Shown: piece by piece, positions 6,905 to 60,266 of the stretch
Position numbering within the stretch: the first letter of the stretch is position 1
Layout: each line of letters begins with the position of its first letter
From: a virus
Virus record (IMG/VR): IMGVR_UViG_3300048837_001089
Location: 5,277 to 69,276 of that record
Length of the DNA stretch: 64,000 nucleotides
Direction: 5' to 3' (one strand)
Notes under the pieces: generated by a model
Databases searched by the model: none
Told to the model about the DNA's origin: nothing
The model's input: the letters and a program-made list of their open reading frames with translations, nothing else
Made by a program: the position numbers and the translations under genes

Positions 6905-7351
6905 TCAGCCGCCGATCGTGAAGGCAGGCTGATCCGGTTCTTTCGGCGCGTCACCGCTGACGGGCGGCTCGCCATCGTAACGGACGCCGCCGTTTTCCCC
7001 GACTGTGGCAAAGGCTTCGCCTTCTCCGTCGAGGGCGCCTTGCAGATCGCCGGCACGGGCGGGGCTGTACGGCAGGACGTAATAGATCGGCTCGCCGGAG
7101 CCGCTATCGAGCAGGACGTAGATGGCTCCGCTGTCTGTGGCCGTGGGTACGACGATCTTGGCGCCGACGACCGTATAGTTGCCGGGCGGCGGCGCGGTGA
7201 ACTGCGGCTGGCCGAGCGGGACGTACATCGCAAGCGCGGCAAGCACTGTCATCACAGGCAGCGTCAGGGCCGGGGTGCGCCGCGTCGACACCCATGCGAA
7301 GCCGCACAGGAGCAAGGCGAGCGCCAGCCAGACGGAAGCGATGAGGGTCAT
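6905..7351 (-). CDS. Two-TM membrane protein with periplasmic domain
   Basis: Two hydrophobic helices followed by a beta-rich AIYVLL...PIYYVLPY segment. Confidence 0.7.
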   Translation of the reverse strand: MTLIASVWLALALLLCGFAWVSTRRTPALTLPVMTVLAALAMYVPLGQPQFTAPPPGNYTVVGAKIVVPTATDSGAIYVLLDSGSGEPIYYVLPYSPARAGDLQGALDGEGEAFATVGENGGVRYDGEPPVSGDAPKEPDQPAFTIGG

Positions 7352-36046: not shown

Positions 36047-36122
36047 TGGAGCCGGCGGTCGGAGTCGAACCAACAACCATCGACTTACAGGGACGCTGCT
36101 CTACCAGTTGAGCTACGCCGGC
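36047..36122 (-). tRNA. tRNA-Thr(UGU)-like with atypical anticodon arm
   Basis: 76 nt; GCCGGCG acceptor stem, GCTC/GAGC D arm, TTCGA T loop, encoded CCA; loop CCTGTAA. Confidence 0.8.
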
Positions 36123-40041: not shown

Positions 40042-40318
40042 CGATCGGAAATAGATTCATACCCCCCCCCTTATTTTTGGCCTGTTTTTCATAGTTTTGT
40101 TGATTCCATTTCCGATCGACATATATAGAAGAATAAGTAATTGATATTATTGAGTTATTCGCGAAACCGATCGGAAAAACGTCATTTCCGATCGCTAAAA
40201 ACTCAATGAAATCAATGGTGTTTTTCAGGTCGATCGGAAATGAGTTTTTCCGATCGACCTCATTTTCGGGTCGATCGGAAATTTTTCGGCCCATTTTTTT
40301 CCGATCGATTTCCGATCG
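40042..40318. repeat. Iteron cluster, probable replication origin
   Basis: Nine copies of TTTCCGATCG in both orientations in an AT-rich gap after the primase; IHF consensus at 40135-40147. Confidence 0.75.
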
Positions 40319-40329
40319 ACTGCCTGTTT

Positions 40330-42675
40330 TCAGGCGGCCTCTTTGTCGCCTTCCGTTGGTGTCGGGGCGTATTTCGACAGGTACAATATGCTGCTCTTCC
40401 TGCCGCCTTTGGGGGGCGTCACATGGACGTCGACTATCTCTTCCGCGTCGATCAGAAGGTTGATAACGTCCTCACCGCGTCGCTTGTCCAGCCGCCCATT
40501 GAGCCGTTTGAGCAGGTACGACCTCGGCATGCCGCCCCGCTTTCCTTCGCCCACGATGGCCCTCACAAGCTTGTATTCGGCCTGCCTGTCGTTGTCGGCC
40601 ACGTAGCGCTCGGCTTGCTCCAGGAGCATTTTGCAGGACTGCCTGGATACGTCGGACGCCCATTGCATGATGTCGGCTGTTAACTCCGGCCTTTCGGGGT
40701 CAACGCCGACAGCCACGATGGTGGCTATGCGCATGGCATTCTCGGCGACGCGGGCATACACAGGCTCGTGCTCGGTGTCCGCATCGTCCATGATCGCGAA
40801 CATCTCATTCACAAACGCATCGAACACCTTCTGCGCGCCCCTTCCCCAAACTACGGGGACGGGGACGATGCTCTTGGTCCCGTCTGACAGCATCCCATTC
40901 AGGTCACCGCCGTTTCTGTGGTTTACGAGAGCCTGCACCCGCTGCTTGAGGTCTCTTGGCGGCAGGCTGGTCTTTCGGGGCGGGTGCCGCGGCTTTGGGC
41001 GGCTTGTCCCCGCATCCAGCACGATAAAGCGCGGCAGGAATCCGTCCATTATGGACCCGCTCCCCAGCGCCTTCCAAAAGGCGTCGGGGGTCGATGTACC
41101 AAAGATGCACACATTCGGGTTGTAGATCGGCTCCGCCAGGTTTTGTGCGTAGTCCGCGCCCATAAAGACAGACGCAGCCGTGCCCGTCATTTCCAGCAGG
41201 TCTTCCGCAATCTCTTTTTCATGGTTACCGGACTTGGGCGACGTGACCTTGCGCATGAAGCCGCCAAACTCGTCGATCATGTAGACAAGCGTCGGGTTGG
41301 CCTTTACGCGATTGCGCAAGCCTGACGACGACGCGATCTTGTTACCGCCGAAGAATTTCTTGAGGGTTTCGCTCGCCCCTGCCAACGACTTGATGGCTGC
41401 GCGGGGGTGCTCCTTACCGAAACCGGACGGGGCCAACCCCACGATATAGACGTTTGTTCGCAGTCCGGTCGGGCCTTCGTACCGTCGGCCGGCGAGCGCG
41501 CCCACATAGGCCAGCGCCGCGCCGAGGTTAAGAAGTGGAGATGGATTGCGTGCGGTATCGTTTAGCCACTTGACGATATCGCCCACCAGGCCCGGAACAT
41601 CCGTGAGCGTCCCGGTCGTTTTGAATGGGACAATAGTGGTGTCTTCCTCCCCTGCCGCGTGAGCGACAACGGCGTCTTCGGACAGCTCGATCGGCGCGAT
41701 GGCCGGCGGCTCACCTTTCCTGCCGTCCTTGCCCGCCGCTACCGCGCGCTCCACCATTTCCTGCAAGAGGCCTATATCTGAACTATAGGCGTCCTGCTCC
41801 ACCGGCCGGTGCTTGCGCGAAATGGCGGAAAGGTCGGCCCCGCCTTGCCGGGCGAGTTCTGCCAAGGAGCCGAGATTGACGCCGCCGGTTGAGGCGAACC
41901 CCTTCCACTTCTTGGCAACCTCTCCCGGCTTGTACTTCTTCCCGCGCGAACTCCACGAGTCGGCCACGGACAGTCCATCGGCACCTAACGCCGAGTGAAC
42001 GGCCATAAGGGCCGCCACCCAATCCTGGTAGGCGCAGTCCGGGCTGACATAAGAAAGCATTTCGTCGATTTCGGCTGCCGTGGCACTTTCGGCCCGCCGG
42101 TCCTGAGCGAATTGCGTGGGCGTGTGCTTGGGCTTTAGAAGCAGGTCAAGCAGCCAGCTGGGGGCGTCGGCGATCGGCTCATCGTTGAGCCATCTGTAGT
42201 TGCGGCCGTCCTCCATGACGCTGCCCGGCGCAATGTAGTACCCGCCCTCCCCCCTTGTTTCCACGCCGGACGCGATGTCTGCGTTGCGAATGCCGTGGAC
42301 ATGCTTGAAGAGATAATGAAGTCCACCGCTGCCGGTCTCGGCCGATCGCGTTTTGAGTGGCCCGTACTTCTCTTCCATGGCGCGCAGCCACGGGCGGCCG
42401 TCCTCATGCTTTGGCGGCACGTCGATATCGAGCACCCAAAATCCGCTGCGCTCTCCCGTCGGGACGCCGATCAGCGCGTTGGGGTATTTGTCCCAAAGGA
42501 TTCCGATAATGCGTTCTGACGTGGTCGAGCCGCGAAACCCGTTGGACGTTAGCGGCGATTTTTCTGACAGGACCTCTCCCGTCTCTACATCAAAGTCGTC
42601 GGCCGGGCGGCACGGGAAAACCGGGATGCCCTGCTTTGCGTAAGACAGGGCGACCGAAAGCGGGGACGTGGTCAT
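40330..42675 (-). CDS. Bifunctional primase-polymerase with PriCT-2 and C-terminal helicase-like domain
   Basis: PVFPC, VLDID, TGSGGLH, RGEGGY; YQDW...W; GLAPSGFGKE, IDEFG. Confidence 0.9.
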   Translation of the reverse strand: MTTSPLSVALSYAKQGIPVFPCRPADDFDVETGEVLSEKSPLTSNGFRGSTTSERIIGILWDKYPNALIGVPTGERSGFWVLDIDVPPKHEDGRPWLRAMEEKYGPLKTRSAETGSGGLHYLFKHVHGIRNADIASGVETRGEGGYYIAPGSVMEDGRNYRWLNDEPIADAPSWLLDLLLKPKHTPTQFAQDRRAESATAAEIDEMLSYVSPDCAYQDWVAALMAVHSALGADGLSVADSWSSRGKKYKPGEVAKKWKGFASTGGVNLGSLAELARQGGADLSAISRKHRPVEQDAYSSDIGLLQEMVERAVAAGKDGRKGEPPAIAPIELSEDAVVAHAAGEEDTTIVPFKTTGTLTDVPGLVGDIVKWLNDTARNPSPLLNLGAALAYVGALAGRRYEGPTGLRTNVYIVGLAPSGFGKEHPRAAIKSLAGASETLKKFFGGNKIASSSGLRNRVKANPTLVYMIDEFGGFMRKVTSPKSGNHEKEIAEDLLEMTGTAASVFMGADYAQNLAEPIYNPNVCIFGTSTPDAFWKALGSGSIMDGFLPRFIVLDAGTSRPKPRHPPRKTSLPPRDLKQRVQALVNHRNGGDLNGMLSDGTKSIVPVPVVWGRGAQKVFDAFVNEMFAIMDDADTEHEPVYARVAENAMRIATIVAVGVDPERPELTADIMQWASDVSRQSCKMLLEQAERYVADNDRQAEYKLVRAIVGEGKRGGMPRSYLLKRLNGRLDKRRGEDVINLLIDAEEIVDVHVTPPKGGRKSSILYLSKYAPTPTEGDKEAA

Positions 42676-43142
42676 GATGCCCTCCTGGTGGCTGACATAT
42701 GCGGGGTGACGACTCGGTGCCATTCCATATGACACGCACGGCAGAGATGGCTTTTGGGCCACCGCTCCGAGTCTTCAAAGAGATAAGACGGCGCCCAATG
42801 ATGGACTTCAGAACCGTTCAGCGACCCGCAGCGCTCGCACGGTACGACGTCGTGCTCTGTTATGAATGGTATGCGGGAGTCATCCAGATGCTTGACGTCG
42901 CCGTGGGGCAAATCGGAGCCCCGCCCGCCGCAATCCAGGTAATAGGCTTTGTATTGTATCGCGCCGCTGGCGCACCGCACCTTCCCGAGCGCGACAACTT
43001 CGCTGCTTTGGGTGCACTTGTATCTGTGCCGCGGTCGCTTGTTCCAGGGCAAGTCAAGGGAGGATGCGGTGTAGAGTTCAACCCCGACCGAAAGCGGGGT
43101 GGCAGAGCCGACCGCGACCGGCGCGCTGGATGTAGGCTGCAC
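42672..43142 (-). CDS. Zn-binding, HNH-like small protein (start uncertain)
   Basis: CERC...HH...LCRACHMEWH. Confidence 0.5.
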   Translation of the reverse strand: MQPTSSAPVAVGSATPLSVGVELYTASSLDLPWNKRPRHRYKCTQSSEVVALGKVRCASGAIQYKAYYLDCGGRGSDLPHGDVKHLDDSRIPFITEHDVVPCERCGSLNGSEVHHWAPSYLFEDSERWPKSHLCRACHMEWHRVVTPHMSATRRAS

Positions 43143-54619: not shown

Positions 54620-54973
54620 CTAGCACCAGGGCTCCCGGCGGCCCGTCCACGTGCGGGCAAGGCCGGCGGCTACTAGCTGGTCGCCTACGTCACGGCCGTC
54701 GACCGTGATAAACGCGAGCGTCCTGCGGTACTTGTCGAGCTTGTGGCGCGTGATGACCACCTTCCCGCTTGCCAGAATGGCGGCAAGACGCGCCTTGGCG
54801 CGCTGTGCCAGCCGGGTTTCGTAATCGCACCGGCCGTTTATTTCCGGCGCGTCGATATTGGCGATGCGCACGCTTTCGGCGCCGATGCGGATGCTGTCGC
54901 CGTCCCACACCTTGACCTGCGTCGGGGTGCAAAGGTTGGCGCAAATCAGGGCTGTGATGATGGTGTGGGTCAT
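54620..54973 (-). CDS. Thermonuclease (SNase family)
   Basis: WDGDSI, RIANIDAPE, DKYRRTLA, GLAR. Confidence 0.92.
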   Translation of the reverse strand: MTHTIITALICANLCTPTQVKVWDGDSIRIGAESVRIANIDAPEINGRCDYETRLAQRAKARLAAILASGKVVITRHKLDKYRRTLAFITVDGRDVGDQLVAAGLARTWTGRREPWC

Positions 54974-54977
54974 GAGG

Positions 54978-55538
54978 TTAGGCCGGGACGACTATGTGCG
55001 CGCAGCCGCGAAACAGGTGCGAATCCATTGGCGGCTTTTCGGACACAATAATCAGTTTGCCATCGGCCCAAGCGCGTACACGCTCGGCAGTGGCCGCGAA
55101 TACCCCGCCTTCGCTCAGCCAGGTTGACCTGATGGGACCGGCGTCGTCGACTATCGCAAATTTGAAACAGGAGGCCCGCACCATCCCCAACCCTGGACGG
55201 TGTGACGAGTACGGCTGCCCTTTGCCCAGGAATCTCGTCGTGTCCACACAATCATTGAGCCCATCCCATCGGATGCTGATGTAGGGCGAGTTCGCAGTCT
55301 CGATTATGCGCTCCAGCCTGGATTTCGTCGCCCACACTGAGTTGCCATCGCGCGCTTGCACCTCTACCCATATCGGGCGTCCGCCCGGTGCAAACACAGC
55401 GTCACATGCACGCCGTATAGCCGTTTCCTGCGCGGGGATATTTGCTCCCTGCTCCGCCGCCACGGCCGTACCCGAAACGGCCGGCAAGGCCGCCATGGGC
55501 GCGAGGCCAAGTGCTGTTAGTAGTGCTCTCCGGTTCAT
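54978..55538 (-). CDS. Hypothetical protein with twin-arginine-like N-terminus
   Basis: AAGGAG RBS; MNRRALLTALGLAPMAA. Confidence 0.7.
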   Translation of the reverse strand: MNRRALLTALGLAPMAALPAVSGTAVAAEQGANIPAQETAIRRACDAVFAPGGRPIWVEVQARDGNSVWATKSRLERIIETANSPYISIRWDGLNDCVDTTRFLGKGQPYSSHRPGLGMVRASCFKFAIVDDAGPIRSTWLSEGGVFAATAERVRAWADGKLIIVSEKPPMDSHLFRGCAHIVVPA

Positions 55539-55562
55539 TGTCTGGTTCTCCTTTTCTGTGAG

Positions 55563-55727
55563 GTTGCCCGCCGCGCTTCCCGCATGGGTTGCGAGGTAGG
55601 GATGGCAGCGGGCAATGAGGATGCAGACCGGCGCTGGGTGGATGGGAAGCGGAGCAATCATGGCCGGTCTGCAAGCTGTCGGGGCGGCGCGTACCCACTG
55701 GGTTTCGTTGCCCGATTGGCCGCCCCG
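55563..55727 (-). repeat. Dual-spacer stem-loop (TIGR-like) sub-array D, 3 units
   Basis: Units 55563-55616, 55622-55673, 55680-55727; + strand pattern stem-(G/C)GCG-N9-TGGGNNNCG-N9-TGGC(C/A)-stem. Confidence 0.88.
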
Positions 55728-55733
55728 TGCCGG

Positions 55734-56372
55734 TCACACCGGCAATTCGTCTACGTCGGCGCGCAGCTTCGCGGCCTGCGCAAGCGTCACGACCTTTGAC
55801 ACAATCTGTTCGGCGCGCGTGCCCTTTGCGCGAATCAACCTCAGCCACGACATCTCGCGGTACTCGCTGCCGATCCGGCCAGCCTTCTCCGCGCATATTG
55901 CGTCAAGCTGCTCCATCGTCGCGTCGCCCAGCCGGACAGTCCTGCCGTTGCCCAAGCCGTACCGAATATCGAATAGCGTCTCCTGGCTGGCGCGGCTGCC
56001 GCTTGCGTAGCTGGCACGTACCGTGGCCGTAAAGCCGGCCCCTATTTTCTGTTTGGCTTTTTCGGAAAGTTTTGCCGCGAGGCCGACCTTGGCTGCTCCG
56101 TCCGACTCCGCTGCGGCGAGGATGCGCTTGTTGTCACTCAGTCGGACGTGGGCAATCATGCTTTTTGCCTGTTCGAGCAACATGTAGTCGCGGAGAGATT
56201 CGCGGGCCAGCGCTTCGCGGTAGAGTGCCGTTGCCGCCTTGGCTTCATCGCCATTGCATGCGTCGAGTATACGGCGTGCTGTCGATGCGGGCGTCTCGTC
56301 ATGCGCGCCCGTAACGCGCTGGCGACGCGGCTTGAAGGCTTTGGTTGTTCTGGTTTCTGGTGAGATGAACAT
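55734..56372 (-). CDS. Hypothetical protein bracketed by two sub-arrays
   Basis: GGAG RBS, 212 aa; abuts array units on both sides. Confidence 0.75.
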   Translation of the reverse strand: MFISPETRTTKAFKPRRQRVTGAHDETPASTARRILDACNGDEAKAATALYREALARESLRDYMLLEQAKSMIAHVRLSDNKRILAAAESDGAAKVGLAAKLSEKAKQKIGAGFTATVRASYASGSRASQETLFDIRYGLGNGRTVRLGDATMEQLDAICAEKAGRIGSEYREMSWLRLIRAKGTRAEQIVSKVVTLAQAAKLRADVDELPV

Positions 56373-56399
56373 TTCAGTGCTCCGTTGGGTTTTGGGGTA

Positions 56400-56693
56400 A
56401 GCGACGCGGCGCCCGTAGATTGGGGTTCGCCCGCCGTATGGCCGCATCGCTATGGGTTGCCTGACCGGGCGATCGAGTACCGGGCTGCGTCACCAGTTTG
56501 GCCCGGTCAGGCGTTGGTTAAGAGGGCGGCGGCTTCATCATGAGTTTCGCAAGCAGCATGGCCGCCCTCTATTGGTTACCCCGCCGCCGCGCGTCCTCGG
56601 CCGGACTGCGGTCCTCCTCTGGCAGCGACGGGAATTGGTGTGGCGGGGCGGCGGATTCATGATGGGTTTCGCCAAAGTGGTGGCCGCCCCGCC
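56400..56693 (-). repeat. Dual-spacer stem-loop (TIGR-like) sub-array C, 5 units
   Basis: Units 56400-56451, 56459-56512, 56521-56570, 56580-56632 (degenerate), 56642-56693; period about 60 bp. Confidence 0.9.
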
Positions 56694-56698
56694 TTCGG

Positions 56699-57937
56699 CT
56701 ACGCCATAGAGCGTCGCCATTCCGAAAACAGGTCTGCGACCATGCACTTGCCGAGATATCGCAGGGCGCGGTTGGTGGCGTGCTTCTTGTACGATTCCTT
56801 GTGCTCGCCCTTGGCGTTAATCGCAGTCGTGACAGGCAGGCCCAGCTTGTCCGATTCCAGCCTTACGCGCTTCGCGAAAATGCGCTGCTGCGGCGTCAGG
56901 TCAGGATTGGCGTCAACGTCCTCGCCAAAGGCGGGCCGCCACTTGCCCATGCCGAGAATCATCGGCCCGGTCGCGTTCCACAGGACGCTTCGCCGCTTGC
57001 GGTTGTAGCCCTCGGTGACCCACGTGTCCTCCGTGGCTCCCGCACCTGGGTTGCCCTGCCTGTGGCCGTCGATAACCGCCACCCCAAGCCGCTTCCACAA
57101 GGCGGACACGGACTTGAAGTCGCCGACTACAAAAACCTCGCCGGCCTTGCCGAATTCATTATCAGTGCGGTTGACGCTGGTGGCTTCCGCGATGATGGTA
57201 GCGAGTGACACGTCGCCCAGGCCCTTCGTCTTTTTGCAGAAGTCGATGATGGGAAGTTTTCGAAGCTCGCGGATCATAACCTTCGCTCGGTGCTGGATTT
57301 CCGCCTCAAGCGGCTCCTGCGCCCGCAGGTACGGTGCGATGGCCTCGTTGAGTTCTGACGCCGGGTCCGCCAAGGCCTTCTTGTATTCGGCGTCTACAAA
57401 CTTTTCGGCGGCTTTTGCTTCGGGCGAATCGCGGTCGCCGAACCTCTCGATGCCCAGAAAGCCGCGCACAATCGCCTTACACTGGTTTGTCAGCTTTGTG
57501 TTCGCAACGATGGCGCGCTGCCGTAGACGATGCGCGTGCCGGATGGCGAGGATTGCCGGCAGGTGCGCCGGGTTGGTGCGGAAGACGGGGGCGTCCTCAC
57601 CTTGGGTTTCGCAGATGTTATGGCCGCCGTCTTCCGTTGGGGAACCAGCGTGCGGCGGTTCGGCAGTGGGTTTCGCCCGCTTGATGGCCGCATCGCTGGT
57701 TTGGGTGTTGCCGACCGCGTCTGGATAATGGGTATCGACCGGTGACTGGCAGTCGGCAATAAGTGGGCTGGTGGCGTAGTCCGGGTGGGTTTCGTCGCGC
57801 CCTTGGCCGCCAGCTTTGGTGTTGCCCTTGGCGGCTGCCCCGGAGGCGCCGTCGCGGGCTTTTCGTATGCGCACTCTCGGCGCTGAATCTGTCATCGCCG
57901 CGAGTGCGGCGGGGTTCATGGGTACGTCGTCAAACAT
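56699..57937 (-). CDS. Nuclease-less IS110/Nop-domain RNA-binding protein (TasA-like)
   Basis: HRLRQ...KLTNQ coiled coil, KGLGDVSLATIIAE, DFKSVSALWKRLG, YNRKRRSVLW, HATNRALRY; no DEDD RuvC domain; AGGAGA RBS. Confidence 0.8.
   Translation of the reverse strand: MFDDVPMNPAALAAMTDSAPRVRIRKARDGASGAAAKGNTKAGGQGRDETHPDYATSPLIADCQSPVDTHYPDAVGNTQTSDAAIKRAKPTAEPPHAGSPTEDGGHNICETQGEDAPVFRTNPAHLPAILAIRHAHRLRQRAIVANTKLTNQCKAIVRGFLGIERFGDRDSPEAKAAEKFVDAEYKKALADPASELNEAIAPYLRAQEPLEAEIQHRAKVMIRELRKLPIIDFCKKTKGLGDVSLATIIAEATSVNRTDNEFGKAGEVFVVGDFKSVSALWKRLGVAVIDGHRQGNPGAGATEDTWVTEGYNRKRRSVLWNATGPMILGMGKWRPAFGEDVDANPDLTPQQRIFAKRVRLESDKLGLPVTTAINAKGEHKESYKKHATNRALRYLGKCMVADLFSEWRRSMA
57579..57815 (-). repeat. 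Dual-spacer stem-loop sub-array B, 4 units inside the tas-like ORF
   Basis: Units 57579-57636, 57643-57701, 57707-57760, 57766-57815. Confidence 0.9.
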
Positions 57938-57958
57938 GCGGTGTCTCCTGTTGTGGTG

Positions 57959-58144
57959 GCGCAAGCGGCGCCCCTAGAATGGTTTTCGACGGTACGGTGG
58001 CCGCTTGCGTTTAGGGAGCCCGGTCGGCGGTGGACCAATGGATTGCGCTTGTTTTGTGGCCGGCCGGGCTGTTGGTGGATTTGGGCGGGTTGGGGGTGAT
58101 GGCGCGCATTTCATGGGTCACGCGGCGGCGCTGGCCATCACCCC
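57959..58144 (-). repeat. Dual-spacer stem-loop sub-array A, 3 units
   Basis: Units 57959-58010, 58017-58070, 58093-58144. Confidence 0.9.
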
Positions 58145-58305
58145 GAACGCGCCACCGGCGTCTCAGCCGGCAGCGTCCTCTGTGCGTCTACGGCGGGTTC
58201 GGCAGGACTTCGAGGATTCTTCTCTTGCCGCTCATCTCGTTCATGACCTTCGATCCCCTGTGTTTCGGCGCGTCTTGGGAGGCGACCGCCGGGTGGTTGA
58301 TTGGG

Positions 58306-58369
58306 GTTATATGCCTAACGCAGATTATTGTCAACTGCCTAACGCAGATTTATATGTGCGATACGCAGA
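58306..58369 (-). promoter_or_regulatory. Left early promoter with three repressor operators
   Basis: - strand TTGACA-N17-TATAAC (58334-58306); operators at 58310-58324, 58334-58348 and 58355-58369 resembling TCTGCGTWACGCAGA. Confidence 0.8.
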
Positions 58370-58371
58370 CC

Positions 58372-58989
58372 ATGATTAGGAACAACGAAGAAATAGGCGT
58401 CAGGCTGCGAGAAGCGCGCGAGGCTGCGGGGTTTAAGACCGCAAAGGATGCAGCGCAGTCTATGGGTGTCCCCTACGGAACCTACTCACTGCACGAAACT
58501 GGCGCGCGAGGCATCGCCCGCGCGGTTGAGCTGTACGCACGGCGTTTACACGTTTCTGTAGATTGGCTGCTGAGGGGAATCGGCCCTGGCCCCCGGAACA
58601 AGAAAGCCGCTGCGGTTGGCATACCGTTGCTTTCTTGGGTTAGTGCTGGGGCTATGAGCCGGGATGATGTTGGTGACGAAGCCCTCGGCGTGCTGGATAT
58701 AGGGCACCTGCCTGACGGCGACTGGATCGCCCTTCGTGTCGAGGGCGACTCGATGGACCGAATATCTCCTCCAGAATCGGTTATTCTGGTGAACCGTAAA
58801 GATCGGCGCCTCGTCGCAAACGCCTGCTATGTGGTGTCCGACATTAGCGGCAATGCCACATATAAAAGGTATCGGCCCAATCCACCGAGGTTTGAGCCTG
58901 TATCCACCAACCCCGTACACGAGCCGATTTATCCAGACAACGAAGTCCCGGTTGTCGGGCGTGTGCGCCGCACCATCTTGGACATGTGA
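58372..58989 (+). CDS. cI: CI-like repressor (HTH + S24 peptidase)
   Basis: RLREARE HTH, VDWLL, VSAG cleavage site, GDSM, YKR. Confidence 0.93.
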   Translation: MIRNNEEIGVRLREAREAAGFKTAKDAAQSMGVPYGTYSLHETGARGIARAVELYARRLHVSVDWLLRGIGPGPRNKKAAAVGIPLLSWVSAGAMSRDDVGDEALGVLDIGHLPDGDWIALRVEGDSMDRISPPESVILVNRKDRRLVANACYVVSDISGNATYKRYRPNPPRFEPVSTNPVHEPIYPDNEVPVVGRVRRTILDM

Positions 58990-59001: not shown

Positions 59002-59071
59002 TCTGCGTTAAGCGAGTAACTTGCGTAACGCAGATTTTTTTGTTGACTTTTGTATCTGCGTTACGCATAAT
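59002..59071 (+). promoter_or_regulatory. Right early promoter with three repressor operators
   Basis: TTGACT-N17-CATAAT (59043-59071); operators at 59002-59016, 59020-59034 and 59055-59069. Confidence 0.8.
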
Positions 59072-59105: not shown

Positions 59106-60266
59106 ATGCCCGCCAGACGCACCACCCAGCCGGACCAAGACACCAACACGCCCACCACACCGCCCACCACACCCGACGCCCCGCCCATCGTCGCCTATAA
59201 GGGCTTCAATCGCGACCTCACATGCTCGCCTGACGGCAAGCCGTTTCAGTATGAACTCGGAAAGACCTACGACAATGGCGGCACGCCGGTCGTGCGGTGT
59301 GGTGAAGGGGCTTTCCATTGGGTGGAAATGCCACTTGATGCCTTCAGCTATTACGGACCGGCGTCGAGTCGGTATGCGACGGTCGAGCCTGCAGGCGAGA
59401 TTGCCCGCGAGGAAAATAGCGATACGAAGGGCGCGTCCAGTATCCTGACCGTCAAGGTCGATATCTCGATCGGTGAATTGACGCGACGTGCAGTGTCGTG
59501 GGTTGCCGATATGGCTCGCAAGCAGGGCAACGGACAGCATACGACCGGCAACCGCGCCCATGCGGCCAGCACCGGGGACTACGCCCATGCGGCCAGCACC
59601 GGCAACCGCGCCCATGCGGCCAGCACCGGGGATGGCGCCCATGCGGCCAGCACCGGGGACTACGCCCATGCGGCCAGCACCGGGGACTACGCCCATGCGG
59701 CCAGCACCGGGGACTACGCCCATGCGGCCACCGCCGGCAACCGCGCCCATGCGGCCAGCACCGGGGACTACGCCCATGCGGCCAGCACCGGCTACTGCGC
59801 CCATGCGGCCAGCACCGGGGACTACGCCCATGCGGCCAGCACCGGCTACTGCGCCCATGCGGCCAGCACCGGGGATGGCGCCCATGCGGCCAGCACCGGC
59901 AACCGCGCCCATGCGGCCAGCACCGGGGATGGCGCCCATGCGGCCAGCACCGGGGACTACGCCCATGCGGCCAGCACCGGCAACCGCGCCCATGCGGCCA
60001 GCACCGGGGATGGCGCCCATGCGGCCAGCACCGGCAACCGCGCCCATGCGGCCAGCACCGGGGATGGCGCCGTGGCTGTGGCAATCGGTTTCGGTTCAAC
60101 AGCCACCGCGGGCAAAGGCGGTGCCATCAGCTTGGCTGCATACGACGAAACGGTGTGGCCGCCGAAGCTCGTGGCCGTGCGGTCATCGATGGTCGGCCAG
60201 AACGGTATTGAGGCCGGAAAGAAGTATCGCCTCACAGTCTCTGGCAAATTTGAGGAGGTGCTCTGA
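59106..60266 (+). CDS. Early phage protein with YKGF/FQY N-domain and 9-aa tandem repeats
   Basis: AYKGFNRDLTC, FQYELGKTY, PLDAFSYY; STGxxAHAA repeats; C-terminal VGQNGIEAGKKYRL. Confidence 0.85.
   Translation: MPARRTTQPDQDTNTPTTPPTTPDAPPIVAYKGFNRDLTCSPDGKPFQYELGKTYDNGGTPVVRCGEGAFHWVEMPLDAFSYYGPASSRYATVEPAGEIAREENSDTKGASSILTVKVDISIGELTRRAVSWVADMARKQGNGQHTTGNRAHAASTGDYAHAASTGNRAHAASTGDGAHAASTGDYAHAASTGDYAHAASTGDYAHAATAGNRAHAASTGDYAHAASTGYCAHAASTGDYAHAASTGYCAHAASTGDGAHAASTGNRAHAASTGDGAHAASTGDYAHAASTGNRAHAASTGDGAHAASTGNRAHAASTGDGAVAVAIGFGSTATAGKGGAISLAAYDETVWPPKLVAVRSSMVGQNGIEAGKKYRLTVSGKFEEVL
59541..60071 (+). repeat. 27-bp coding tandem repeat, 19 full copies plus one partial
   Basis: agcaccgg(c/g)-NNNNNN-gcccatgcggcc; variable dipeptide NR, DY, DG or YC. 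Confidence 0.95.

What the first reader, a model, noticed from the sequence alone, without database searches (positions are those of the whole stretch)
56699..57560. IS110-derived protein stripped of both catalytic parts
Seen: the coiled coil, HhH-like KGLG...IIAE, FKSVSALWKRLG, YNRKRR and terminal HATNRALRY helices are present, but there is no N-terminal DEDD RuvC, no HNH, and no SG serine loop after LG. Established: IS110 recombinases need the RuvC domain and that serine. Inference: it binds rather than cuts, so guided repression or recruitment is more likely than transposition or cleavage.
Basis: partly seen in the sequence, partly recalled or inferred. Interest (0 to 1): 0.78.

Follow-up and report, generated by a model that had tools for sequence, protein, structure and literature searches.

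The report
Phage TasA with stem-loop guide RNAs
This phage gene encodes a nuclease-free, RNA-guided DNA-binding protein (TasA) surrounded by fourteen small hairpin guide-RNA genes; the system is real but belongs to a kind first described in 2025.

Summary
ORF 56699-57937 (-) encodes a 412-aa protein. Its residues 120-412 form the coiled-coil plus Nop-type RNA-binding core of TIGR-associated (Tas) proteins. Residues 1-113 are predicted disordered, and there is no RuvC or HNH domain.

Evidence for the fold:
- NCBIfam TIGR_Tas model, E 7.8e-14.
- A family profile hits solved TasR 9MTY.
- The AlphaFold model matches TasR (Z 14.4), TasH (12.7) and the IS110-type ISCro4 (11.6).

Fourteen stem-loop units (55564-58153, same strand) read stem-CCA-N9-CG-N4-CCA-N9-CG-stem. 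The stems co-vary. Four units lie inside the disordered N-terminal coding region.

The same units accompany homologues in 38 of 55 bacterial prophage loci and in Rhizobium phage RHph_X2_25.

This is therefore a TasA with a stem-loop TIGR array, a kind published in 2025. Relatives were shown in 2026 preprints to bind DNA and repress transcription without cutting. "Binds rather than cuts" is supported. "IS110-derived, stripped" is not.

New here:
- A conserved ~200-aa partner gene of no known family (55734-56372), present in 42 of 57 sequences.
- A close relative in metagenome contigs that differs mainly in the spacers.

Natural targets were not found.

The parts
56699..57937 (-). tasA ORF (412 aa from the ATG at 57937; stop at 56699-56701). 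The folded coiled-coil + Nop-type core is residues ~120-412 (about 56702-57580).
57599..57937 (-). N-terminal extension (residues 1-113). Predicted disordered. Begins with the conserved NPAxIAA motif and carries tigRNA units U4-U7 in frame.
58084..58153 (-). tigRNA unit U1 (20-bp stem)
58017..58070 (-). tigRNA unit U2
57960..58009 (-). tigRNA unit U3 (just upstream of the tasA start)
57767..57814 (-). tigRNA unit U4 (inside the tasA N-terminal coding region)
57708..57759 (-). tigRNA unit U5 (inside tasA)
57644..57700 (-). tigRNA unit U6 (inside tasA; stem with one bulge)
57579..57636 (-). tigRNA unit U7 (inside tasA)
56642..56693 (-). tigRNA unit U8 (just downstream of the tasA stop)
56577..56635 (-). 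Possible degenerate 15th unit (stem present, boxes imperfect; fold z only -1.66)
   Evidence: own reading of the sequence
56521..56570 (-). tigRNA unit U9 (second box C is UCA)
56459..56512 (-). tigRNA unit U10 (second box C is CCG)
56400..56451 (-). tigRNA unit U11
55734..56372 (-). Conserved partner gene (212 aa, P0063) of no known family. Lies between two sub-arrays.
55680..55727 (-). tigRNA unit U12
55622..55673 (-). tigRNA unit U13
55564..55615 (-). tigRNA unit U14
58378..58989 (+). Context: divergent CI-like repressor (HTH + peptidase S24)

Best explanation
The ORF is a TasA: the nuclease-free effector of a TIGR-Tas system, carried by a temperate phage of the kind that infects Hyphomicrobiales. 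Fourteen stem-loop tigRNA genes lie on the same strand, in three sub-arrays: upstream and inside the 5' part of tasA, between tasA and the partner gene, and after the partner gene. Each unit is a variable 9-20-bp stem closing a 30-nt loop that reads (C)CA-9 nt-CG-4 nt (mostly AAAC)-CCA-9 nt-CG. That is box C, spacer A, box D, an A-rich linker, box C, spacer B, box D.

Shown here: the protein fold, the absence of catalytic domains, the unit anatomy, its covariation, and its co-occurrence with the gene family.

Inferred by homology to published TasA, TasR and TasH work: the region is transcribed leftward from beside the CI-like repressor gene. The hairpins are cut out at the A/C-rich linkers. 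A TasA dimer holds one tigRNA. The two 9-nt spacers pair with opposite strands of an 18-bp site. The complex then stays on the DNA and blocks transcription or replication without cutting.

The targets are probably in other mobile elements or in the host, not in the phage itself.
For: Protein.
- NCBIfam NF052498 TIGR_Tas_endo: E 7.8e-14, residues 190-408 against profile positions 38-215 of 215.
- The family profile hits 9mty_A (TasR) at E 5.6e-6. The SALWKRLG and HAxNRAxR motifs align.
- Foldseek against PDB: the only 6 hits at E<=1e-3 are TasH (9w03, 21kl, 9w04 twice, 9vzx) and TasR (9mty).
- VIA-align: 9mty_B Z 14.4, rmsd 2.5 A, 186 aligned; 21kl_A Z 12.7; ISCro4 9t56_A Z 11.6. The next row is 8.2.
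- Residues 1-113 have pLDDT <50. There are no Pfam domains.

RNA units.
- Many inverted repeats have exactly 30 nt between the arms.
- The strict motif gives 12 hits in the locus on the minus strand, against 1 stray on that strand and 2 on the plus strand in the whole 69-kb genome. The other two units differ at one box position each.
- Stems are 95.2% paired. 7 of 9 pairs change on both sides. 0 of 500 shuffles reach this, and slid controls give 31-57% paired.

Family.
- 197 units lie on the tasA strand against 8 on the other strand, in 55 loci.
- 207 units were found in 40 of 57 sequences. At the positions the pattern left free, box C is CCA in 204 and 206 of 207. Box D is C or U followed by G. 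The linker is A-rich. Stem mismatches are G-U 57 against A-C 20.
- RHph_X2_25 has the same layout.
- None of these units occurs in 1.51 Mb of a lysogen's genome outside its tasA locus.
- The upstream frame is open for a median of 106 codons in the tasA frame, against 49 and 14.5 in the other frames. It is the longest frame in 33 of 42.
- Metagenome contigs of a close relative differ mainly in the spacers. They carry an in-frame replacement (165 nt for 42) that removes units inside tasA.

Literature.
- Box C CCA, box D UG, A-rich loop, stem-loop arrays with TasA (PMC12045711, passages).
- Intragenic units, disordered N-termini and repression by TasA (bioRxiv 10.64898/2026.09.09.750476, Main, Results and Discussion read).
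Against: - The NCBIfam score (52.1 bits) is below the model's cutoff of 100, and Pfam has no hit.
- Nothing here shows that the RNAs are made, processed or bound.
- No target was found. In the phage's own genome the best match is one site with 1 mismatch and a 2-bp gap (window 7187-7206, unit U1). Shuffled spacers do as well in 2 of 60 trials.
- There are no matches above the control arrangements in RHph_X2_25, in 57 loci, or in 1.58 of 3.3 Mb of one lysogen's genome for that lysogen's own 9 units.
- Box D is CG in all 28 positions of this phage rather than the UG of the characterised TasR.
- The CUU processing motif described for stem-loop arrays is not enriched at the stem bases (15 and 33 of 222 flanks).
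Confidence: 0.87

Rival explanations
1. A domesticated or decayed IS110-family transposase: the C-terminal half of an IS110 recombinase that lost its RuvC domain and catalytic serine.
For: There is weak similarity to the IS110 NCBIfam model (E 1.6e-6, residues 125-259) and to PHROG 'transposase' families. The structure resembles the IS110-type ISCro4 (Z 11.6).
Against: The score is 27.5 bits against a cutoff of 140, and no Pfam IS110 model hits. TasR and TasH score higher than ISCro4. The N-terminus is disordered, variable in length, and filled with guide units rather than RuvC remnants. The gene forms a conserved family with its own arrays in 38 of 55 loci. It is a single copy in the 69-kb genome. 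Faure et al. argue that TasA is ancestral to IS110.
Confidence: 0.04
2. TasA here is only the targeting half of a two-protein effector. The conserved ~200-aa partner (55734-56372) is recruited to the DNA-bound RNP, or matures the tigRNAs. The outcome may then be more than steric repression.
For: A partner homologue lies on the tasA strand in 42 of 57 sequences, next to the gene, with sub-arrays on both sides. 8 of 8 viral contigs fetched with the partner carry tasA just downstream. The family has 1884 representatives at E<=1e-3 and no known domain or fold. Xu et al. leave open whether 'auxiliary factors' process stem-loop tigRNAs.
Against: TasA relatives repress on their own in E. coli according to Xu et al.. 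15 of 57 sequences show no partner at E<=1e-3 within the stretch held. The 8 viral contigs are close kin of the query (65-100% identity), so they are not independent. No catalytic motif is evident. The model is of moderate quality (pLDDT 68, pTM 0.39).
Confidence: 0.3
3. The hairpins are not guides but generic structured repeats (REP-like elements, terminators or protein-binding sites), and the protein binds them as a conventional regulator.
For: The stems are G+C-rich hairpins in a G+C-rich genome. No target and no expression data were found.
Against: The loop has a fixed 30-nt length with twofold CCA-N9-YG symmetry, while the stems and the two 9-nt blocks vary freely. The units keep a strict orientation relative to tasA, 197 against 8. 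They are absent elsewhere in the phage and in 1.51 Mb of a lysogen's genome. A close relative keeps the scaffolds but changes the 9-nt blocks.
Confidence: 0.03

Closest known systems
Stem-loop TIGR-TasA systems (PlTasA from a Peromyscus leucopus gut contig; BlTasA, MbTasA)
   Same: Nuclease-free coiled-coil + Nop protein with an unresolved or disordered N-terminus. [quoted passage not shown] Sub-arrays lie on both sides of the gene and inside it. The carrier is a phage (for the literature; here).
   Different: No sequence of those proteins was available for direct comparison. Here box D is CG throughout. The linkers are A/C-rich (ACC, CCA, CAA) rather than carrying the reported CUU. The host range is alphaproteobacterial prophages. 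A conserved partner gene accompanies tasA.
TaTasR (PDB 9MTY) and SpTasH (PDB 9W03/9W04/21KL)
   Same: These are the best structural and profile matches to the core. They share the WKR.G and HAxNRAxR helices and use the box C CCA logic.
   Different: They carry RuvC or HNH domains and cut DNA. They use 36-nt dual-repeat tigRNAs. Identity to this protein is only 14-18%.
IS110-family bridge-RNA recombinases (IS621; ISCro4, PDB 9T56)
   Same: The coiled-coil and C-terminal RNA-binding fold are shared (Z 11.6). The guide loops are bipartite.
   Different: There is no DEDD RuvC domain, no Pfam or NCBIfam membership, and no Ser-Gly at the corresponding loop. That loop reads RQG here; the IS110 serine motif is recalled, not tested. 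The guides are arrays of many simple units rather than one two-loop bridge RNA.
Archaeal/eukaryotic Nop5/Nop56/58 box C/D snoRNP proteins
   Same: There is a distant fold resemblance (1NT2_B, Z 7.2, 167 aligned). The guide layout is box C/D-like.
   Different: There is no Pfam Nop hit. Z lies within the range of coiled-coil noise. No fibrillarin or L7Ae partner is present, and the target is DNA, not RNA.
TasParB-TasA operons (Faure et al. 2025, Methods passage)
   Same: A second gene lies in an operon with tasA, with arrays upstream, downstream and between the two genes.
   Different: Those arrays are dual-repeat and the partner is ParB-like by HHpred. The partner here shows no ParB signal in Pfam (11 members scanned), in a PDB profile search or in Foldseek. 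Fig. S14 could not be seen.

Membership tests
TIGR-Tas, TasA subtype | Coiled-coil + Nop-type C-terminal RNA-binding core homologous to characterised Tas proteins | tested here: met
   NF052498 at E 7.8e-14. The family profile hits 9mty_A at 5.6e-6. The Foldseek top 6 are all TasH or TasR. VIA Z 14.4 and 12.7.
TIGR-Tas, TasA subtype | No RuvC or HNH nuclease domain | tested here: met
   No Pfam hit at E<=10. Residues 1-113 are disordered. The N-terminus is variable and low in complexity across 32 homologues.
TIGR-Tas, TasA subtype | [quoted passage not shown] In the stem-loop type, each unit is closed by a variable palindromic stem. | tested here: met
   14 units. Covariation in the stems. The same is seen in 38 of 55 homologous loci and in RHph_X2_25.
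TIGR-Tas, TasA subtype | Score above NCBIfam's curated cutoff for NF052498 (an equivalog of the RNA-guided endonuclease) | tested here: not met
   52.1 bits against a cutoff of 100. By its name the model describes the endonuclease forms. This shortfall explains why the homologues are all annotated 'hypothetical'.
TIGR-Tas, TasA subtype | tigRNAs expressed, processed and bound by the protein; RNA-guided DNA binding | not testable with these tools
   No run on record as RNA holds the stretch. The contigs that were laid are probably DNA.
IS110-family transposase | N-terminal DEDD RuvC-like domain and C-terminal Tnp domain (Pfam PF01548 / PF02371; NCBIfam NF033542) | tested here: not met
   No Pfam hit. 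NF033542 gives 27.5 bits against a cutoff of 140 and covers only residues 125-259.
IS110-family transposase | Catalytic serine in the C-terminal domain | tested here: inconclusive
   The loop after WKRLG reads VAVIDGHRQG, with Q294 invariant. The equivalence to the IS110 Ser-Gly motif is recalled and was not aligned residue by residue here.
Nop5/Nop56/58 | Pfam Nop domain (PF01798); partners fibrillarin and L7Ae | tested here: inconclusive
   No Pfam hit. 1NT2_B scores Z 7.2 at rank 31, among coiled-coil matches. The partners were not searched for.
TasParB-type partner | Partner protein with a ParB-like domain | tested here: inconclusive
   No ParB hit in Pfam for P0063 and 10 relatives, in a PDB profile search or in Foldseek. 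HHpred-level sensitivity was not available.

The most novel reading that the evidence does not exclude
This alphaproteobacterial phage clade is a distinct two-protein TIGR subtype. The fast-evolving ~200-aa partner, which has no known fold, is a dedicated component. It may be the missing tigRNA-maturation factor for stem-loop arrays, or an effector or co-repressor recruited by DNA-bound TasA. The module heads the early leftward operon next to the CI-like repressor gene. From there it would silence competing phages or host genes, with guides that turn over by spacer replacement inside stable hairpin scaffolds.
Probability: 0.3. Interest if true: 0.62.

Novelty: new member of a known kind. Interest (0 to 1): 0.36.

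Why it matters
It shows that a protein annotated everywhere as 'hypothetical' (62 homologues) is a TasA with a full stem-loop guide array. These homologues occur in cultured Rhizobium, Shinella, Mesorhizobium and Brucella/Ochrobactrum lysogens and in an isolated Rhizobium phage.

Most published TIGR systems sit on metagenomic contigs, and their natural targets and processing are still open (Xu et al., Discussion). This clade offers tractable phage-host pairs in which to ask:
- what TasA silences;
- how stem-loop tigRNAs are cut out of an mRNA that also encodes the effector;
- what the conserved partner protein does.

Tried and rejected
- **Targets in the phage's own genome.** All 14 units were tested in both strand arrangements. 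Without a gap there was no site with <=2 mismatches, and 3-4-mismatch hits equalled the control arrangements. With 0-2-bp gaps there was one 1-mismatch site, for U1 at 7187-7206. Shuffled spacers reach this in 2 of 60 trials. It is kept only as a lead.
- **Targets in RHph_X2_25, both directions.** None.
- **All 207 units against 57 loci plus the phage.** No excess over the controls.
- **Falsochrobactrum-type lysogen G001.** Its own 9 units were searched against 1.58 of 3.3 Mb, including the whole prophage contig. There was no exact match. The counts at <=2 mismatches were 4 and 2 for the two real arrangements, against 4 and 1 for the two distinct controls. The other half of that genome was not fetched.
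- **Complex prediction, TasA core with the partner.** No verdict (score 0.18 against a mark of 0.32).
- **Expression.** No RNA holder is listed.
- **Promoter and terminator scan.** At chance level.
- **Rfam.** Only one tRNA in the window.
- **Staphylococcal-nuclease gene downstream (54620-54973) as a trans nuclease.** No homologue in any other locus, so it is not part of the system.
- **Strand arrangement of the two half-sites.** It could not be settled from the texts read, so both arrangements were always searched.
- **Covariance model.** None was built, because the pattern and stem test was already specific.
Full report
**What is there**

The window comes from a virus record of 69,276 bases. 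On the minus strand an ORF runs from 57964 (TTG) or 57937 (ATG) to the stop at 56699.

All the quoted motifs are present: KGLGDVSLATIIAE, FKSVSALWKRLG, YNRKRR and HATNRALRY.

Family searches on the protein:
- Pfam finds nothing at E<=10.
- PHROGs gives two weak 'transposase' families.
- NCBIfam gives NF052498, 'TIGR-Tas system RNA-guided endonuclease': E 7.8e-14, 52.1 bits against a cutoff of 100, residues 190-408.
- NCBIfam also gives a weak IS110 hit: 27.5 bits against a cutoff of 140, residues 125-259 only.

**Protein fold**

62 homologues were found. All are unnamed or 'hypothetical' and none has a Pfam domain. They come from Rhizobium, Shinella, Mesorhizobium, Endobacterium, Ancylobacter and Brucella rhizosphaerae, from Rhizobium phage RHph_X2_25, and from metagenomes.

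I aligned 32 of the 62. The core is conserved. The N-terminal part varies in length and sequence, but it begins with a shared NPAxIAA motif.

- The alignment's profile hits the solved TasR, 9mty_A, at E 5.6e-6. SALWKRLG aligns with TasR SKLWAYAG, and HAaNRAkR aligns with HAHNRAVR.
- AlphaFold2 gives pLDDT <50 for residues 1-113, and mostly 80-98 for 120-412. The overall pTM is 0.66.
- In Foldseek against PDB, the only six matches at E<=1e-3 are TasH and TasR chains.
- VIA-align against 48,161 representative chains ranks TasR 9mty_B first (Z 14.4, rmsd 2.5 A, 186 aligned). TasH 21kl_A follows (12.7), then the IS110-type ISCro4 9t56_A (11.6). The next row drops to 8.2, a coiled-coil match. Nop5 (1nt2_B) scores 7.2.

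The order is Tas, then IS110 C-terminal domain, then Nop5.

The repeat finder showed many inverted repeats with exactly 30 nt between the arms, with different arms but similar loops. A scan of the whole genome and a motif search define 14 units in three clusters:
- 58153-57579: seven units, the last four inside the tasA reading frame.
- 56693-56400: four units, plus a possible degenerate fifth at about 56577-56635.
- 55727-55564: three units.

Read on the minus strand, each unit is stem-(C)CA-N9-CG-N4-CCA-N9-CG-stem. The N4 is mostly AAAC.

This matches the published anatomy: box C is CCA, box D is UG, spacers are about 9 nt, and the loop linker is A-rich (PMC12045711, passages).

The strict pattern occurs 12 times in the locus. 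Elsewhere in 69 kb it occurs once on that strand and twice on the other. U9 and U10 deviate at one box position each.

Other properties of the units:
- Thirteen of the 14 units fold with z between -2.7 and -4.9 against shuffles. U4 gives -0.7.
- In a gap-free alignment of the 14 units, 95.2% of stem cells pair. 7 of 9 pairs change on both sides. No shuffle out of 500 reaches the observed values, and slid controls pair in 31-57% of cells.
- Neighbouring units are 6-13 nt apart, joined by A/C-rich linkers.

**Strand and generality**

55 loci encoding relatives were fetched from bacterial genomes. They are mostly Hyphomicrobiales and other Alphaproteobacteria, and they look like prophage contexts.

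- With the loci oriented by tasA, the unit pattern with a stem occurs 197 times on the tasA strand and 8 times on the other. It is found in 38 of 55 loci.
- Among 207 units in 40 of 57 sequences, the positions the pattern left free read C in 204 and 206 of 207 (box C). Box D reads C or U (108/89 and 110/88). The linker is A-rich.
- Stem mismatches are G-U 57 against A-C 20, which fits an RNA read from the tasA strand.
- Loci scored as empty can hold variant units. L009 and L144 have units with 37-nt loops that my strict test missed. The figure of 38 of 55 is therefore a lower bound.
- RHph_X2_25 is a temperate siphovirus of Sinorhizobium and has the same arrangement.
- In 1.51 Mb of a lysogen's genome outside its tasA locus, the unit occurs nowhere.

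**Is the N-terminal extension translated?**

- Upstream of the conserved core, the tasA frame stays open for a median of 106 codons, against 49 and 14.5 in the other frames. It is the longest frame in 33 of 42 sequences.
- The extreme N-terminus is conserved.
- In metagenome contigs of a close relative, 165 nt covering U6, U5 and part of U4 are replaced by 42 other letters. The net change is 123 nt, or 41 codons, so it is in frame (table 5; one contig in each of two runs of one study).

This agrees with the statement of Xu et al. that stem-loop units can lie within tas, in disordered regions, without breaking the frame.

**Spacer turnover**

The same contigs are labelled RNA-Seq but flagged as probably DNA. 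One record covers 55501-56396 with 79 differences (table 8).

- At least 33 of those 79 lie in the 164-nt array 55564-55727.
- By my mapping, 26 of the 33 fall in the 9-nt spacer blocks, 5 in the central linker, 1 in a stem and 1 between units.
- The stem change turns a G-U pair of the minus-strand RNA into A-U.
- The table shows only its best-supported rows, so 33 is a minimum.
- The middle array (56397-56619) does not align at 80% identity. However, the loose end at 56396 continues with U11's stem followed by a different spacer (table 7).

**Context**

The module is transcribed divergently from a CI-like repressor gene (HTH + peptidase S24, 58378-58989).

It heads a leftward block of early and replication genes: Sak4-like annealing protein, sliding clamp, Cas4-type exonuclease, helicase, exonuclease and primase. 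RHph_X2_25 is organised in the same way.

**A conserved partner**

The 212-aa ORF between two sub-arrays (55734-56372) has no Pfam or PHROG hit.

Its relatives lie beside tasA on the same strand in 42 of 57 sequences. The partner is upstream of tasA in 40, and downstream only in this window and in L010.

- A profile search of 1.84 billion representatives finds 1884 relatives at E<=1e-3 and 647 at E<=1e-10.
- Of ten relatives scanned against Pfam at E<=0.1, none reaches a curated cutoff.
- In PHROGs, no family matches more than 2 of 56 members.
- There is no PDB match by profile or by Foldseek. The Atlas gives only viral 'hypothetical' clusters.
- The model has pLDDT 68 and pTM 0.39.
- Fetching viral contigs with a three-sequence sub-alignment of the partner returned 8 loci. 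All 8 have tasA just downstream, but they are close kin of the query.

Faure et al. wrote that TasA lacks clear associations with other proteins, apart from a ParB-like gene in some dual-repeat loci. They clustered neighbouring genes at 50% identity. Members of the partner family here share only 19-28% identity.

I found no mention of such a partner in the two searches I ran:
- 'TIGR-Tas': 47 papers, of which 15 were listed.
- 'tigRNA' + 'accessory': 5 papers.

Nor is it in the texts I read: passages of Faure et al., and the Main, Results and Discussion of Xu et al. plus a term search of that paper.

**Targets**

None was found. Details are under Tried and rejected. This matches the remark by Xu et al. 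that natural targets mostly cannot yet be determined.

**Verdict**

The evolutionary framing, IS110-derived, is not supported.

Noticed in passing
window 55734-56372 (-): A 212-aa gene of no known family lies between two tigRNA sub-arrays. Homologues lie beside tasA in 42 of 57 sequences. The family has 1884 representatives at E<=1e-3.
   Followed up: yes
window 57862-57916 (-): A stable hairpin without box motifs sits inside the first ~25 codons of tasA, between U3 and U4 (dG -25.1 kcal/mol, z -4.65). Its role is unknown.
   Followed up: partly
window 7187-7206: The only near-match to a tigRNA in the phage's own genome. It is the reverse complement of U1 spacer A, then a 2-bp gap, then spacer B with 1 mismatch. 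It lies in ORFs with no PHROG hit. Shuffled spacers do as well in 2 of 60 trials.
   Followed up: partly
window 58299-58369 and 59022-59067: Three direct copies of a ~13-nt motif (TGCCTAACGCAGA-like) lie just upstream of the CI-like repressor gene. An inverted pair of a similar motif lies at the start of the next gene. These may be operators.
   Followed up: no
window 59554-60071 (+): 19 tandem copies of a 27-nt unit lie inside a DUF7666 protein gene (59106-60266). They encode 9-residue repeats (HAASTGDYA-like).
   Followed up: no
window 40140-40320: An A+T-rich cluster of overlapping inverted and direct repeats (TTTCCGATCGA-like) lies just upstream of the primase gene (40330-42762). It may be a replication origin.
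   Followed up: no
window 36050-36122 (-): A tRNA gene (Rfam RF00005, 56.3 bits).
   Followed up: no
L009 3257-4031 and L144 3898-4672: In the Brucella/Ochrobactrum-type loci the units have 37-nt loops, with 2-3 unpaired bases between the stem and the boxes. Strict stem-abutting searches miss these.
   Followed up: partly
222 units in loci L001-L056 and the window: The flanks at the stem bases are G-poor and A/C-rich (ACC, CCA, CAA). The CUU motif reported for stem-loop tigRNA processing is in only 15 (5' flank) and 33 (3' flank) of 222 flanks.
   Followed up: partly
window 54620-54973 (-): A staphylococcal-nuclease homologue lies three genes downstream of tasA. No counterpart exists in any other tasA locus, so it is probably unrelated cargo.
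   Followed up: yes
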